From positions 1 to 35,026 of the IMG/VR virus record IMGVR_UViG_2698536657_000017: DNA of 35,026 bases; one strand, 5' to 3'. Shown here piece by piece: positions 6,001 through 9,000 of this stretch (position 1 is the first letter of the stretch; the number at the start of each line of letters is the position of its first letter). This DNA comes from a virus. Lineage: Duplodnaviria; Heunggongvirae; Uroviricota; Caudoviricetes. Made by a program: the position numbers.

Positions 6001-9000
6001 AATCGAGTTCGTATTTATGAAAAGCACGGTCGATTCCGGCATTATTTATTGCACTGTATTCCGCATCACTGAAGAAAGGTGGAAATACGATGTATCCTTC
6101 CATTGTCAGCGCCAGAACGCGCGGATCGGTTTCTGTCAGCCATTCGTTTTCTGTGAATTCTTCAGAATTAATTTCAATGATTTCAGGTTCTTCTTTCATG
6201 GTTACTCCGTGTTCATCCGGTGTTAATTACTTTTATTCACTCTGAGCGCAGCCAGAAGATGTGGCTCAGCAATTCGTTTGTTGCGATATATCTGTGATAC
6301 AGCCTGGCCTTTTCAGGTCGTAAAAATCCCCGACAATAAAGCTGTAAATTAATTACTGTTCTTAAATAATGTTATTCGTTTTCAGTCCGGCACAGATGCT
6401 TTTCTGCTTTGTCTGCTGTACAGGATAATGAGCGGAAAAGACAATTCATCATGTTTAGCGCATCTGGTGAACCAATATCACCGCTGTCAATAATCACCTG
6501 TAACAAAGACAGGCTTTCTGTTATCTCGCAGTGGACATTATCGAGTACTTCAACGCAATTATTCATTTTTCATTATCTCCGTTATTCCGGGGGAGGAGCT
6601 ATGCTGTTAATGATTAACGCATCCGGTAATATGCCCCTCTTTAATGTAATCGATGCATTCATTCAAAAGTTCATCAATGATTAACTTTCCTGATTCAGTC
6701 AGATACTCACCATGTTGGTTGATACCGACAGCATCCTGGTATGCAGTGCGTATTGCTGTTTCACCATCTTTCCGCCCAAACTCACCACGGGTAACGCCTT
6801 CAAATCGTAATAGCAACTGGCTTATGAACTGTTCTGTTATTTCAATAGTTGTTAACTCTCCATCATGACGCTTTACAGTGAGGAGATTACTTCCTGTTTT
6901 TCGTTTCATCCGCCGCAGTGCTGCAACCGTTATGCGGCGACGATATGCAGAAATGTATTCATCTTTCATTTGTTATTTCCCGTATGCCTTTTTGAGAAAC
7001 AATACTGCAACTGACCAGTATCCGGCATCAGCCATTAATAAAGCGGTTTTATAGGCATGTTTGTTTTTCATGTGTCATCCCCATTTTAAAATAGTGAGAA
7101 CTCCCGACCGCAGACCGTCATGTTTTTATGTATGATTGTCTGTTTAATTTCCTTTATTCGTTCTCAGAGCATCAACATACTCGTAAGCCTTTTCACAGGT
7201 TTTATTCATGGAACGAATCAGACAAAGTAAGAAATCATCTGTCTCTCCGTTATCACCAGAGTTTTTAAATATAAACTCAAGCATTGACGTGTTTTCTTTT
7301 ATTTCTGCTGCCACTTCCTCAAGCATAATCAGGGGAGTTTTCATGTTCTTTGTTCCTTAAATGCATCGCATGCGCTTCTGGCGTATTGTTGTGCCAGTAA
7401 AAATATGTCATCCGAAAGTTCATCACATTCTTCATCACCGGAAGCCGAAATGATTAACCCCGCTTCAAGCAGTACTGCAATGTGATGAAAAGCTGTTTCC
7501 GGTTCGTTGGTGAGGCCTTTGAACATTTTCATCTTACGATTCCTTTGTCGTGTCAGAATGGAAACTTGTAAGTAACCACATCGGATCGCAGTCAAGTATA
7601 TTTGCCAGAGGAATCACCTGGCTTGCCAGAGGTTCAGCCTTGCCGTTCTCCCACTGGATGATGGTTTCTTCATCAACTCCAAGCAGCGTGGCGAGTTCAG
7701 CGGTGGATAGACCGCAGCTTTCGCGTTGGGTGCGGATGCCATCACGGCAATCTTTTTTGTTTCTCGGAGGTAACAGAATATGTTTTAGTTGTTGGATTTT
7801 TTCGATTCCAACCTCAAGGAGTACGTGACGGTTTCTTTCCGATACAGACTCCAGACTTTCATGAAGCAGCGATTCTACTTGTTCGATAAGCATCAATTGT
7901 GAAGTAGACATAAAAAAACCTCGTAACCAATATTTCGAAATCTAGGTTACGAGTGAGTAATGTAGGTGTCAAGAGCAATTAATGTTTTTTGTTGAATTAA
8001 ATTTGCATACGCATCTCAACGACAACACCAATAATTTCACAATCCCCATTGATGGGGATCAGTGGATAGCGTGGGTTTAGTGGCTTTAGGAAACATTGCC
8101 CAGCGTCTTCTATGTACTGTTTAAGGGTTGCCTCTCCGGAGTTTTTGAGCCTGGCGACGACATATTTTCCTGAAAAAACTTCTTTGTCAGGGTTAACAAG
8201 AATGTTCATGCCTTCAAAAATAGAGAACTCTCCATTCTGTGATGTCATTGAGTCCCCTTTCACTTCCAGCCAGAAGCCGTGATCGCCCGCATATATATCG
8301 CTACCAATCCATTCTTCTGGATAAGCTATGTAATCTTCGCAGTTCCAGGGGCCAGCACTCACCCATGTTAGTTTCGGATATCTATAACGGTTTGGAGAAA
8401 CTGGCTTAGGATTTCGGACGTTTTGAATGCTATCTGTAGGTGATGGGGCGCTGCCGTCAAGAAGCCATTTAGGAGAGCATTTCAATGCATCCGCGATTCT
8501 AAATAGGTTTGAAGATCTTGTGTCTTGTGAGTCTCCTAACTCTATTTTGCTGATTGTTACACGCGAGACACCAGTCAATTTTGCCAGGTCATCTTGTGAC
8601 ATTCCTAGCTGTACTCTGCGCATTAACAGTCTGCCACCAAAGCTATCGTGATCCATCTTCTCCCCCTTCTTGTCGAAATAATCGTTTCGAAACAAATATA
8701 GCAAAAAATCTTGAAATCTAGGTTTCGGAAAATTAAGATTAATCGAAACAAACGTGTCGAGGTGGATATGGATTTGTATGAAATTCTAAAAAACATGTTT
8801 GGATCGAATGTTGAAATAGGTCGTTATTTTCCCCGAAGGGGAAGGGCTAGAACCGGACAGGCTGTAGGTAAGTGGAAAACCCGAGGTGTGCCGGAAGACG
8901 TGGCGATCCTTTGTCATCTGGATCCCAAAATTCCTTATCAGCATCCGTCGCTCATGAATGCCAGTCATGAATCGTGATGTTCTGCCGGAGGCTGTATGTC

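What the first reader, a model, noticed from the sequence alone, without database searches (positions are those of the whole stretch)
7920..8748. Shared operator-like 12-mer GAAATCTAGGTT and TTTCGAAA-type palindromes on both sides of the repressor gene
GAAATCTAGGTT occurs at 7937-7948 (left side, inside a 34-bp near-palindrome) and at 8713-8724 (right side). Further TCGAAA/TTTCGA inverted half-sites lie at 8673-8690 and 8721-8748. This defines a candidate repressor/Cro recognition motif and the immunity type.
Basis: seen in the sequence. Interest (0 to 1): 0.4.

Follow-up and report, generated by a model that had tools for sequence, protein, structure and literature searches.

The report
Prophage repressor operator sites flanking cI
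The repeated 12-mer and TTTCGAAA palindromes are pieces of six 14-bp repressor-binding sites (GAAA-N6-TTTC) on the early promoters either side of a lambda-type cI gene in an E. coli prophage, which is an ordinary genetic switch of a rare, uncharacterised immunity type.

Summary
GAAATCTAGGTT occurs exactly twice in 35 kb, at 7937-7948 and 8713-8724 (0.07 matches expected). The 34-bp near-palindrome and the TCGAAA/TTTCGA half-sites are also present.

The recognition unit is not the 12-mer. It is a 14-bp two-fold symmetric site, (C)GAAAY-N4-RTTTC(G). There are six copies:
- OL2 7923-7936
- OL1 7937-7950
- OR4 8675-8688
- OR3 8689-8702
- OR2 8713-8726
- OR1 8745-8758

A weight matrix built only from relatives outside the window's clade ranks these six as the top hits in the whole window (13.8-23.2 bits; next best 8.1). 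The sites cover PL, PR and a conserved leftward extended -10 that I take to be PRM. Outer bases are conserved in relatives whose CI is only about 55% identical but has the same recognition helix.

The 12-mer is one half-site plus the centre of OL1 and OR2. The TTTCGAAA palindromes are junctions of abutting sites. The 8721-8748 pairing joins halves of two different operators.

The repressor has a P22 C2/434-like HTH domain and a lambda-like S24 domain. The divergent 69-aa gene has a Cro fold. The nearest known relative is phage phiP27, whose operators (GATAC-N4-GTATC) differ mainly at one half-site position. Binding is inferred, not tested. This is a new member of a known kind, of low to moderate interest.

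The parts
7534..7911 (-). First gene of the leftward (PL) operon: a 125-aa protein with a C-terminal HTH_3 domain. Its N-terminal ~53 aa lie inside the immunity-specific module; its HTH is identical in a prophage of the sister immunity type.
   Evidence: Pfam HTH_3, E 2.3e-11. PHROG 4739 and 4836 'CII-like regulator'. Comparison with L003.
7920..7953 (.). 34-bp near-palindrome, made of the two abutting operators OL2 and OL1 plus flanking CTC/GAG. On the minus-strand RNA it is a hairpin followed by U7 (7918-7912).
   Evidence: Inverted repeat I2, 17-nt arms, 88% complementary. RNA fold -14.3 kcal/mol, z -2.9. Conserved in L002, L008 and L009 with variable centres.
7923..7936 (.). OL2, GTAACCAATATTTC. 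It covers the inferred PL +1 and leader and abuts the Shine-Dalgarno sequence (GAGG, minus strand, 7922-7919) of the first leftward gene.
   Evidence: Weight-matrix score 20.7 bits, third best in the window. Half-sites invariant in L002, L008 and L009 while the centre changes.
7937..7950 (.). OL1, GAAATCTAGGTTAC.
   Evidence: Weight-matrix score 22.6 bits, second best. The same site type lies at the PL -10 in 8 relatives, and 1.6-2.4 kb from cI in Proteus-type relatives.
7944..7972 (-). Candidate PL promoter on the minus strand: -35 TTGACA (7972-7967), 17-bp spacer, -10 TAACCT (7949-7944). Inferred start near 7937.
   Evidence: TTGAC[AT]-N17/18-TAA[CT]CT is found downstream of cI in the window and 8 of 11 relatives. 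The consensus scanner did not call it because the -10 matches only 3 of 6.
7997..8656 (-). cI repressor, 219 aa. It has an N-terminal HTH_3 domain (recognition helix SRVTISKIE) and a C-terminal S24 self-cleaving peptidase domain (Ala101-Gly102, Ser136, Lys179).
   Evidence: Pfam Peptidase_S24 3.4e-23 and HTH_3 1.5e-14. PDB: lambda CI 2.4e-27, P22 C2 N-terminal domain 1.9e-7, 434 Cro/repressor about 1e-6. Alignment A1.
8675..8688 (.). OR4, GAAATAATCGTTTC. It is a perfect palindrome core inside the perfect 18-mer 8673-8690 and covers the inferred PRM +1 to +14. It is an extra site, strong only in the window/L002 clade.
   Evidence: Zero mismatches. Weight-matrix score 18.6 bits. Half-sites kept while 3 of 6 centre bases change in L002.
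8689..8702 (.). OR3, GAAACAAATATAGC. It overlaps the conserved leftward extended -10 (minus strand TGcTATATT, 8703-8695), the candidate PRM.
   Evidence: Weight-matrix score 16.8 bits. The CGAAA and AATATA-C-AAA columns are invariant in 10 sequences. Fixed position -38/-40 from the CI start in relatives.
8713..8726 (.). OR2, GAAATCTAGGTTTC.
   Evidence: Weight-matrix score 23.2 bits, best in the window. Fixed position -62/-64 in relatives. Its centre co-varies with OL1 within genomes.
8711..8739 (+). Candidate PR promoter: TTGAAA, 17 bp, TAAGAT. Inferred start near 8746.
   Evidence: Promoter scan. The -35 TTG-AA and -10 TA--AT columns are invariant across 10 relatives.
8745..8758 (.). OR1, GAAACAAACGTGTC. 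It lies between the PR -10 and the Shine-Dalgarno sequence of the cro-like gene (inferred PR +1 to +13).
   Evidence: Weight-matrix score 13.8 bits, sixth best; next best elsewhere is 8.1. Fixed position -94/-96 in relatives. The CGAAA columns are invariant.
8768..8977 (+). cro-like gene, 69 aa, first gene of the rightward operon.

Best explanation
**Setting.** This is the immunity (lysis-lysogeny switch) region of a lambdoid, phiP27-like E. coli prophage.

**Proposed mechanism.** Dimers of the CI repressor (7997-8656, minus strand) bind 14-bp two-fold symmetric operators with consensus (C)GAAAY-N4-RTTTC(G). The outer four bases of each half are the main specificity determinants, and the central six tune affinity, as in phage 434.

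**The six sites.**
- On the left, OL1 (7937-7950) covers the PL -10. The abutting OL2 (7923-7936) covers the start and leader of the first leftward gene.
- On the right, OR1 (8745-8758) covers the PR start and OR2 (8713-8726) covers the PR -35.
- OR3 (8689-8702) and the abutting OR4 (8675-8688) cover the -10 and start of the candidate cI maintenance promoter.

**Expected behaviour.** In a lysogen, CI shuts off PL and PR and limits its own synthesis at OR3/OR4. RecA-stimulated self-cleavage (Ala101-Gly102; Ser136/Lys179) would release repression. The 69-aa Cro-fold protein made from PR probably binds the same sites with a different preference order.

The 12-mer is the left half-site plus centre shared by OL1 and OR2. 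The TTTCGAAA palindromes are the seams of the two abutting doublets.

**Shown:** the sites' existence, their statistical excess, their positions on conserved promoter elements, their conservation pattern, and the protein domains and folds.

**Inferred:** that CI (and Cro) bind them, the transcription starts, and the regulatory outcome.
For: 1. **Out-of-sample test.** A weight matrix was built from 38 sites in eight relatives outside the window's clade. Its six best hits in the 35-kb window are exactly the six sites (23.2, 22.6, 20.7, 18.6, 16.8 and 13.8 bits). The next best elsewhere is 8.1. The maximum in 200 shuffles averaged 11.6 (SD 2.5; largest 19.7).
2. **Enrichment in relatives.** In 11 related loci, GAAA-N6-TTTC with up to 1 mismatch occurs at 19.3 per kb in the 125 bp on each side of cI, against 0.78 per kb elsewhere. 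The sites sit at fixed offsets of -94, -62 and -38 from the CI start.
3. **Link to the protein.** These relatives have CI only 55-77% identical overall but share the recognition helix GVSRVTISKIELG (L088 has one T-to-A change). Prophages with helix GVTRVAISKAE(Q/L)G (phiP27, L003, L118, L121, L124) carry GATAC-N4-GTATC sites at the same 24/32-bp spacing.
4. **Footprint.** Across 10 aligned OR regions, the outer 4+4 operator positions are 95% conserved, the centres 82% and other intergenic positions 72%. In L002 the perfect site keeps both half-sites while 3 of 6 centre bases change.
5. **Promoter overlap.** PR is TTGAAA-17-TAAGAT. PL is TTGACA-17-TAACCT, conserved in 8 of 11 relatives. In Proteus-type relatives the distal operator, PL and the OL1-type site together lie 1.6-2.4 kb from cI, so these sites go with PL rather than with the end of cI.
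6. **Protein identity.** CI has HTH_3 plus Peptidase_S24. Its N-terminal domain matches P22 C2 and 434, and its C-terminal domain matches lambda CI. The 69-aa protein has the Cro fold.
7. **Co-variation between sites.** The 14-mers at OL1 and OR2 change together between lineages: GAAATCTAGG at both in the window clade, GAAACCTAGG at both in L017, L081 and L084 (L088 has one further change at OR2).
Against: - No binding data exist for this repressor or for its nearest relative, phiP27. Literature searches found no description of either operator set.
- The relatives are phylogenetically related, so part of the conservation is shared ancestry. Promoter elements overlap the sites and contribute to it.
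- Two pairs of sites abut with a centre-to-centre distance of 14 bp, which may not allow two dimers to bind at once. The true occupancy of the doublets is unknown.
- OR2 lies at about -25 to -38 of the candidate PRM, unlike lambda OR2 at -42. Activation of cI transcription cannot be assumed, and the PRM assignment itself is tentative.
- The Cro-like protein's putative recognition helix is almost invariant across both operator types, and the swapped immunity module (7753-8776) essentially excludes it. Its target sites are therefore not established.
- OR1 scores only 13.8 bits, within the range reached by the best hit of some shuffled 35-kb sequences.
Confidence: 0.8

Rival explanations
1. The left 34-bp palindrome works mainly or additionally at the RNA level, as the intrinsic terminator of the cI transcript. 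Transcripts coming from upstream would contain the whole hairpin plus U7 and stop just before the first leftward gene. PL transcripts start inside the hairpin (near 7937) and would escape.
For: - The minus-strand RNA folds into a 9-bp stem with an inner stem, -14.3 kcal/mol, z -2.9, and is followed directly by UUUUUUU.
- The window clade has no other hairpin between the cI stop and PL. Relatives L017, L081, L084, L088 and L089 carry a canonical GC-rich terminator right after cI (sequences).
- The one stem change in L009 would give a G-U wobble in RNA (sequence).
Against: - The U-run is interrupted in L002/L016 (UUUUCUU) and absent in L008 and L009, although the palindrome is conserved there.
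- The terminator scanner did not call it.
- The same 14-mer occurs at OR2, where no hairpin or U-run exists.
- Both halves score as operators with an independent weight matrix.
- At best this is a second function in one clade, not an alternative to operator function.
Confidence: 0.15
2. The sites, or the subset with the CTAG centre (OL1 and OR2), are the preferred targets of the Cro-like 69-aa protein rather than of CI. The shared 12-mer would then reflect Cro's preference.
For: - The protein has the Cro fold and is the first PR gene.
- OL1 and OR2 share a centre that is kept identical within genomes across lineages. Such selection for matched sites is not required by CI if the centre is uncontacted.
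- In lambda, 434 and P22, Cro and CI share operators with different rank orders (established knowledge).
Against: - The Cro helix (S/T/G)(S/G)Q(A/G)VGKW does not track operator type. The same helix occurs with GAAA-type and GATAC-type operators.
- Proteus-type relatives have the same Cro but a different OR2 centre (CTTAGC).
- CI's helix does track operator type.
Confidence: 0.25
3. The left palindrome is the autoregulatory operator of the 125-aa HTH protein encoded immediately downstream, not a CI site.
For: It lies directly upstream of that gene and overlaps its Shine-Dalgarno sequence and promoter. The protein has an HTH_3 domain.
Against: - The HTH domain of this protein is identical in prophage L003. 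There, the corresponding region carries GATAC-type sites matching L003's own CI operators, not GAAA-type sites.
- The same motif recurs four times on the far side of cI.
- The HTH domains of this protein differ among relatives that keep the GAAA-type sites.
Confidence: 0.04
4. The repeats are chance or compositional (AT-rich intergenic DNA) and have no shared function.
For: The sites are short and lie in AT-rich intergenic DNA. The first consensus was derived post hoc from the same sites.
Against: - The 12-mer was expected 0.07 times and found twice, within about 780 bp.
- The weight matrix built from other genomes picks exactly these six sites.
- There is a 25-fold enrichment at fixed positions in 11 relatives.
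Confidence: 0.01

Closest known systems
Immunity region of Stx2e phage phiP27 (genes L12, L11, L10) and the matching E. coli, Klebsiella, Salmonella and Pantoea prophages
   Same: - Same gene order: cro-like 69-75 aa gene, divergent cI (HTH_3 plus S24), then a leftward HTH_3 gene.
- CI is 49% identical and the Cro-like protein 68% identical.
- Both use 14-bp palindromic operators, three at OR with the same 24- and 32-bp centre spacing and more at OL.
- The prophage backbone is 96-99% identical to the window outside 7753-8776 (L003).
   Different: - Half-site consensus is GATAC there and GAAAY here. The main difference is position 3, T versus A, and a few phiP27-type half-sites are GAAAC.
- The recognition helix is TRVAISKAE(Q/L) there and SRVTISKIEL here.
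- phiP27 has no abutting doublets.
- Neither operator set has been characterised experimentally, as far as the searched literature shows.
Phage 434 repressor/Cro operators (14 bp, ACAA-N6-TTGT)
   Same: - A 14-bp two-fold symmetric site with four conserved outer bases per half and a variable six-base centre thought to tune affinity (established knowledge).
- The DNA-binding domain is of the same HTH_3 class (434 Cro E 9.5e-7, 434 repressor 5.5e-6).
- Multiple sites on both sides of cI overlap PR/PRM and PL.
   Different: - Different sequence.
- Four OR sites and two OL sites here, rather than three and three.
- Two abutting doublets (14 bp centre to centre), and OR1-OR2 32 bp apart.
- The candidate PR and PRM starts are only about 58 bp apart.
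- The Cro here has the all-alpha Cro-family fold rather than being a 434-type HTH_3 protein.
Phage P22 c2 repressor and P22 Cro
   Same: - The best solved match to the CI N-terminal domain is the P22 C2 N-terminal domain (E 1.9e-7).
- In this clade the sites extend to 18 bp (TCGAAA-N6-TTTCGA), the length of P22 operators (from memory).
   Different: Different operator sequence. CI is only about 44% identical to P22/phage 21-type repressors. Site number and spacing differ.
Phage lambda CI / OR-OL switch
   Same: - The C-terminal domain is homologous (3bdn, E 2.4e-27), with the Ala-Gly cleavage site and the Ser/Lys dyad.
- Overall logic is the same: cI lies between a left operator/promoter and a right operator region with divergent promoters, and Cro is the first rightward gene.
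   Different: - Lambda operators are 17 bp and its N-terminal domain belongs to a different subfamily.
- Lambda OR2 sits at -42 of PRM and activates it. Here OR2 overlaps the -35 region of the candidate PRM.
- There are no rex genes between cI and OL in the window, although Proteus-type relatives do have inserted genes there.

Membership tests
Lambdoid CI/Cro immunity region (OR/OL operator system) | Repressor with an N-terminal HTH DNA-binding domain and a C-terminal LexA/S24-type self-cleaving domain | tested here: met
   Pfam HTH_3 1.5e-14 and Peptidase_S24 3.4e-23. Lambda CI 2.4e-27. Ala101-Gly102, Ser136 and Lys179 are invariant in alignment A1.
Lambdoid CI/Cro immunity region (OR/OL operator system) | Several copies of one palindromic site in the cI-cro intergenic region, overlapping divergent promoters | tested here: met
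   Four sites lie in 8675-8758, on PR and on a conserved leftward extended -10. The promoters are consensus matches and conservation only; starts are not mapped.
Lambdoid CI/Cro immunity region (OR/OL operator system) | A second cluster of the same sites on the other side of cI, overlapping the leftward early promoter | tested here: met
   OL1 and OL2 at 7923-7950 lie on TTGACA-17-TAACCT. The same site-promoter unit is found 1.6-2.4 kb from cI in Proteus-type relatives.
Lambdoid CI/Cro immunity region (OR/OL operator system) | Operator sequence tracks the repressor's recognition helix across immunity types | tested here: met
   The same helix goes with GAAA-type sites in 11 loci. The TRVAISKAE helix goes with GATAC-type sites in 5 loci. 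The NRVTVTGWE helix goes with GTAGG-N4-CCTAC. Only three types were sampled.
Lambdoid CI/Cro immunity region (OR/OL operator system) | A small Cro protein encoded divergently from cI that binds the same operators | tested here: inconclusive
   The gene is present and has the Cro fold. Its putative recognition helix does not co-vary with operator type, and it lies essentially outside the swapped module.
Lambdoid CI/Cro immunity region (OR/OL operator system) | Physical binding of repressor to the sites, and immunity to superinfection | not testable with these tools
   This needs EMSA or footprinting and phage crosses.
434-type operator (14 bp, conserved outer tetranucleotides, variable centre) | 14-bp two-fold symmetry with information concentrated in the outer four bases of each half | tested here: met
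   Information content per position is 1.7, 0.95, 1.35 and 1.8 bits at positions 1-4, against 0.1-0.9 in the centre. Conservation is 95% for outer positions and 82% for the centre.
434-type operator (14 bp, conserved outer tetranucleotides, variable centre) | Recognition sequence ACAA-N6-TTGT bound by 434 repressor and Cro | tested here: not met
   The sequence here is GAAA-N6-TTTC, and the CI N-terminal domain is only distantly related to 434 (E about 1e-6). It works like a 434-type operator but is not the 434 immunity.
phiP27 immunity type | Operators GATAC-N4-GTATC and CI recognition helix TRVAISKAE(Q/L) | tested here: not met
   No window site has a GATAC half. GATAC-N4-GTATC with up to 2 mismatches hits only OR1 in the immunity region. 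The helix differs at 4 positions. This is a sister type, not the same one.
Rho-independent terminator | Stable GC-rich hairpin followed directly by a U-run, conserved in orthologous positions | tested here: inconclusive
   A hairpin of -14.3 kcal/mol (z -2.9) followed by U7 is present on the minus strand. The scanner did not call it, and the U-run is lost in L002, L008 and L009.

The most novel reading that the evidence does not exclude
The abutting operator doublet at PL (7920-7953) may be a three-in-one element. It would be a CI operator pair and would contain the PL -10. Read as RNA from upstream, it would also be the terminator of the cI transcript, which PL-initiated transcripts escape because they start inside the hairpin. 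Separately, the two abutting doublets (14 bp centre to centre) could be bound by a CI tetramer in the manner of restriction-modification controller (C) proteins on their ~35-bp operators. That would be a different cooperativity geometry from lambda, 434 or P22.
Probability: 0.12. Interest if true: 0.5.

Novelty: new member of a known kind. Interest (0 to 1): 0.27.

Why it matters
- It gives a concrete, testable operator map (six sites, three promoters) for an uncharacterised lambdoid immunity type. The type is carried by 8 of 5,426 complete E. coli genomes, several of them human stool isolates, and has relatives in Proteus and other Enterobacterales.
- Together with the phiP27-type sister group, it offers a natural pair of repressors whose operators differ mainly at one half-site position, with four changes in and around the recognition helix. 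That is a compact system for studying how new immunity specificities arise.
- It also raises the question of whether a Cro that barely changes can serve both types.
- Otherwise it is a standard phage genetic switch.

Tried and rejected
- **18-bp model.** My first model was TCGAAA-N6-TTTCGA with two left sites overlapping by TCGA. I replaced it with a 14-bp core, because relatives conserve only (C)GAAA…TTTC(G) and the left and OR3/OR4 pairs are then exactly abutting 14-mers.
- **The 12-mer as recognition unit.** Rejected, because its centre is not conserved at OL1 in L008 and L009.
- **The 8721-8748 palindrome.** Rejected as a mis-pairing of the OR2 and OR1 halves.
- **The 125-aa HTH protein as the binder.** Rejected, because its HTH is identical in a prophage with different operators.
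- **Known RNA families.** An Rfam scan of 7400-9400 found nothing relevant.
- **Terminator and promoter scanner.** It found no terminator at the palindrome and only PR among the relevant promoters.
- **Phage records.** Nucleotide search found no match. No phage has a CI N-terminal domain more than 50% identical.
- **Literature.** Searches for phiP27 operators and for Cro/operator codes found no description of these sites.
- **Sequence search of the 69-aa protein.** Pfam and PDB sequence searches gave nothing. Only the fold comparison identified it as Cro-like.
- **IMG/VR scan for GAAACCTAGGTTAC.** It gave 64 stretches. Only two contigs have two copies, and both are family members with the copies flanking cI. 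This is consistent but adds little.
- **Species-representative genomes.** That scan gave only one relative, from Proteus.
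Full report
**Context**

The window is an E. coli prophage. The 7500-9300 segment is 99.6-99.8% identical to the chromosomes of seven complete E. coli genomes and 85% identical to an eighth. No sequenced phage record matches it.

Annotation and ORF maps give the following order:
- integrase and excisionase on the far left
- a leftward operon whose first gene is a 125-aa HTH protein (7534-7911, minus strand)
- an 85-bp gap
- a 219-aa 'LexA family' gene (7997-8656, minus strand)
- a 111-bp gap
- a divergent 69-aa gene (8768-8977, plus strand)
- further rightward genes: a helicase, a toprim protein and antiterminator Q

The 219-aa protein has an HTH_3 domain and a Peptidase_S24 domain. Its C-terminal domain matches lambda CI (E 2.4e-27). 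Its N-terminal domain matches P22 C2 (1.9e-7) and 434 Cro/repressor (about 1e-6). It is therefore a lambda-type CI repressor, and the finding concerns the two gaps that flank it.

**Checking the observation**

- GAAATCTAGGTT is at 7937-7948 and 8713-8724 and nowhere else in 35 kb, even with one mismatch allowed (0.07 expected).
- The 34-bp near-palindrome is real: 7920-7936 against 7937-7953, 15 of 17 positions complementary.
- 8673-8690 is a perfect TCGAAA-N6-TTTCGA.
- TTTCGG and TCGAAA lie at the two ends of 8721-8748.

**What the unit is**

Searching TCGAAA-N6-TTTCGA with up to 2 mismatches gives five hits in the whole window. All five are in the two gaps: 7921-7938, 7935-7952, 8673-8690, 8711-8728 and 8743-8760. 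That pattern was derived from the same sites, so I looked for independent evidence.

Protein-guided scans found related loci:
- L002/L016: CI 96% identical
- L008 and L009: 75-77% identical
- L017, L081, L084, L088 and L089: N-terminal domain 73-86% identical
- L010, L011, L014 and L086: Proteus-type, CI about 55% identical

All share the recognition helix GVSRVTISKIELG, with one T-to-A change in L088.

In these 11 loci the 14-bp pattern GAAA-N6-TTTC (up to 1 mismatch) occurs at 19.3 per kb within 125 bp of either end of cI, against 0.78 per kb elsewhere. The sites sit at fixed offsets of -94, -62 and -38 from the CI start.

I built a symmetrised weight matrix from 38 sites of eight relatives, excluding the window's own clade, and scanned the window with it. 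The six best hits were:

| Site | Coordinates | Score (bits) |
|---|---|---|
| OR2 | 8713-8726 | 23.2 |
| OL1 | 7937-7950 | 22.6 |
| OL2 | 7923-7936 | 20.7 |
| OR4 | 8675-8688 | 18.6 |
| OR3 | 8689-8702 | 16.8 |
| OR1 | 8745-8758 | 13.8 |

The next best hit anywhere else scores 8.1. The maximum in 200 shuffles averaged 11.6 (SD 2.5; largest 19.7). Information lies in positions 1-4 of each half (G, A, A, A) plus a weaker flanking C/T. The centre carries little.

In a 10-sequence alignment of the right gap, the outer 4+4 positions are 95% conserved, the centres 82% and other positions 72%. In L002 the perfect site keeps both halves while 3 of 6 centre bases change.

So the recognition unit is (C)GAAAY-N4-RTTTC(G). 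It has the geometry of 434 operators and extends to 18 bp in this clade.

- The 12-mer is the left half plus centre plus two bases of the right half of OL1 and OR2.
- The TTTCGAAA palindromes are the seams of two pairs of exactly abutting sites: 7923/7937 and 8675/8689, each offset by 14 bp.
- 8721-8748 joins the right half of OR2 to the left half of OR1 across the PR -10.

The 12-mer is still not an accident. A GAAAYCTAGGTT-type site occurs at both OL1 and OR2 in L016, L017, L081, L084, L088 and L089. The two sites change together between lineages: GAAATCTAGG at both in the window clade, GAAACCTAGG at both in the others. In L008 and L009 the centres differ (3-4 of 6 identical). I cannot say whether this matching reflects affinity tuning, Cro preference or sequence homogenisation.

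**Promoters**

- **PR.** TTGAAA (8711-8716), 17 bp, TAAGAT (8734-8739) is called by the scanner, and its hexamer columns are invariant in relatives. OR2 overlaps its -35 and spacer. OR1 lies between its -10 and the Shine-Dalgarno sequence of the 69-aa gene.
- **PL.** On the minus strand, TTGACA (7972-7967), 17 bp, TAACCT (7949-7944) is conserved in the window and 8 of 11 relatives. OL1 contains the -10, and OL2 reaches the Shine-Dalgarno sequence of the leftward gene. In Proteus-type relatives, genes are inserted after cI. The unit of distal operator, TTGACA-17-TAACCT and OL1-type site lies 1.6-2.4 kb away. The sites therefore belong to PL, not to the 3' end of cI.
- **Candidate PRM.** A leftward extended -10 (TGcTATATT, 8703-8695) is the most invariant stretch of the right gap. 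OR3 overlaps it and OR4 covers the inferred start. This puts the PR and PRM starts only about 58 bp apart, with both -35 regions inside OR2. The lambda mode of PRM activation cannot be assumed. All starts are inferred from consensus spacing.

**Link between protein and site**

- Prophage L003 shares 99% and 96% identical flanks with the window, but 7753-8776 is replaced. Its CI is 48% identical, with helix TRVAISKAEQ.
- L003's gaps carry GATACTAAAGTATC-type sites at the same 24- and 32-bp spacing.
- phiP27 (CI 49% identical to the window's, the best match among sequenced phages) is of this type. So are prophages from Klebsiella, Salmonella and Pantoea.
- A third type (L012; helix NRVTVTGWE) has GTAGG-N4-CCTAC.
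- Operator sequence therefore follows the CI helix.

The window and phiP27 types are close. They differ mainly at half-site position 3, some phiP27-type halves are GAAAC or GTAAC, and the window-type matrix scores phiP27-type sites at 13-16 bits. Heteroimmunity is likely but not demonstrated.

**The Cro-like gene**

- The 69-aa protein has no Pfam or PDB sequence match.
- Its putative recognition helix (S/T/G)(S/G)Q(A/G)VGKW is nearly invariant over 38 homologues and over both operator types.
- The swapped module essentially stops at its start codon.
- Either it reads the bases common to both operator types (G1, A2, A4, C5), or its targets differ. This is unresolved.

**Rivals**

- **RNA terminator.** The left palindrome folds as an RNA hairpin on the cI strand (-14.3 kcal/mol, z -2.9) followed by U7. 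The window clade lacks the canonical post-cI terminator that other relatives have, so a terminator role for cI read-through is possible. However, the U-run is not conserved where the palindrome is (L002, L008, L009). At most this is an added function.
- **The 125-aa HTH protein as binder.** This is excluded as the main binder, because its HTH is identical in L003, where the sites differ.
- **Chance.** This is excluded.

**Verdict**

- This is a conventional lambdoid immunity region of the phiP27-like family. The repressor specificity is uncharacterised and rare (8 of 5,426 complete E. coli genomes).
- The motif definition needed correction.
- It is a new member of a known kind.
- Points of mild interest are the abutting doublets, the one-position relationship to phiP27-type operators, and a Cro that does not co-vary with operator type.

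Noticed in passing
window 8768-8977; L003 4298-4507; alignment A3: The Cro-fold 69-aa protein is highly conserved across Enterobacterales, with 22 invariant columns in 38 homologues. Its putative recognition helix is almost the same in prophages with GAAA-type and GATAC-type operators. From residue 33 on, it is identical in the window and in L003, the prophage of the sister immunity type.
   Followed up: partly
window 7534-7911 (boundary near 7752): The 125-aa leftward HTH protein is chimeric relative to L003. Its C-terminal part (from about residue 59, including the HTH domain) is identical in the two prophages, while its N-terminal ~53 residues belong to the swapped immunity module (7753-8776). 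The function of the immunity-linked N-terminal part is unknown.
   Followed up: partly
window 7912-7953, minus strand: The operator doublet forms an RNA hairpin followed by U7 directly before the ATG of the leftward gene. It is a possible terminator for cI read-through transcripts, which PL transcripts would bypass. Relatives L017, L081, L084, L088 and L089 instead have a canonical GC-rich terminator right after cI.
   Followed up: partly
window 8688-8746: The inferred PR and PRM starts are only about 58 bp apart, and their -35 regions both lie inside OR2. The two promoters may therefore be mutually exclusive, and CI at OR2 may not activate PRM as it does in lambda.
   Followed up: no
L117 (NZ_CP027586.1) 347-1044; also NZ_CP075632.1: In two E. 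coli strains (2012EL-2448 and 2018-166), an IS1A element is inserted at the 3' end of the 125-aa HTH gene of this same prophage, altering its C-terminus.
   Followed up: partly
L173 about 9750-9830; L185 about 2270-2340: In Proteus-type relatives the OL/PL module lies 1.6-2.4 kb downstream of cI, with inserted genes between, including a 260-aa ORF. The arrangement is analogous to rexAB between cI and OL in lambda.
   Followed up: partly
L017/L089 OL region: In these relatives the ATG of the first leftward gene lies immediately next to the OL1-type site (CATTTCGAAACCTAGGTTAC). The PL transcript would be leaderless or have a very short leader.
   Followed up: no
window 7954-7996 versus L008/L009: L008, L009 and the L017-type relatives have an additional distal operator upstream of the PL -35, for example TTGTAATAAAAGTTTCGG or GAAACTTTTCTTTC. 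The window and L002 have only a degenerate remnant there.
   Followed up: partly
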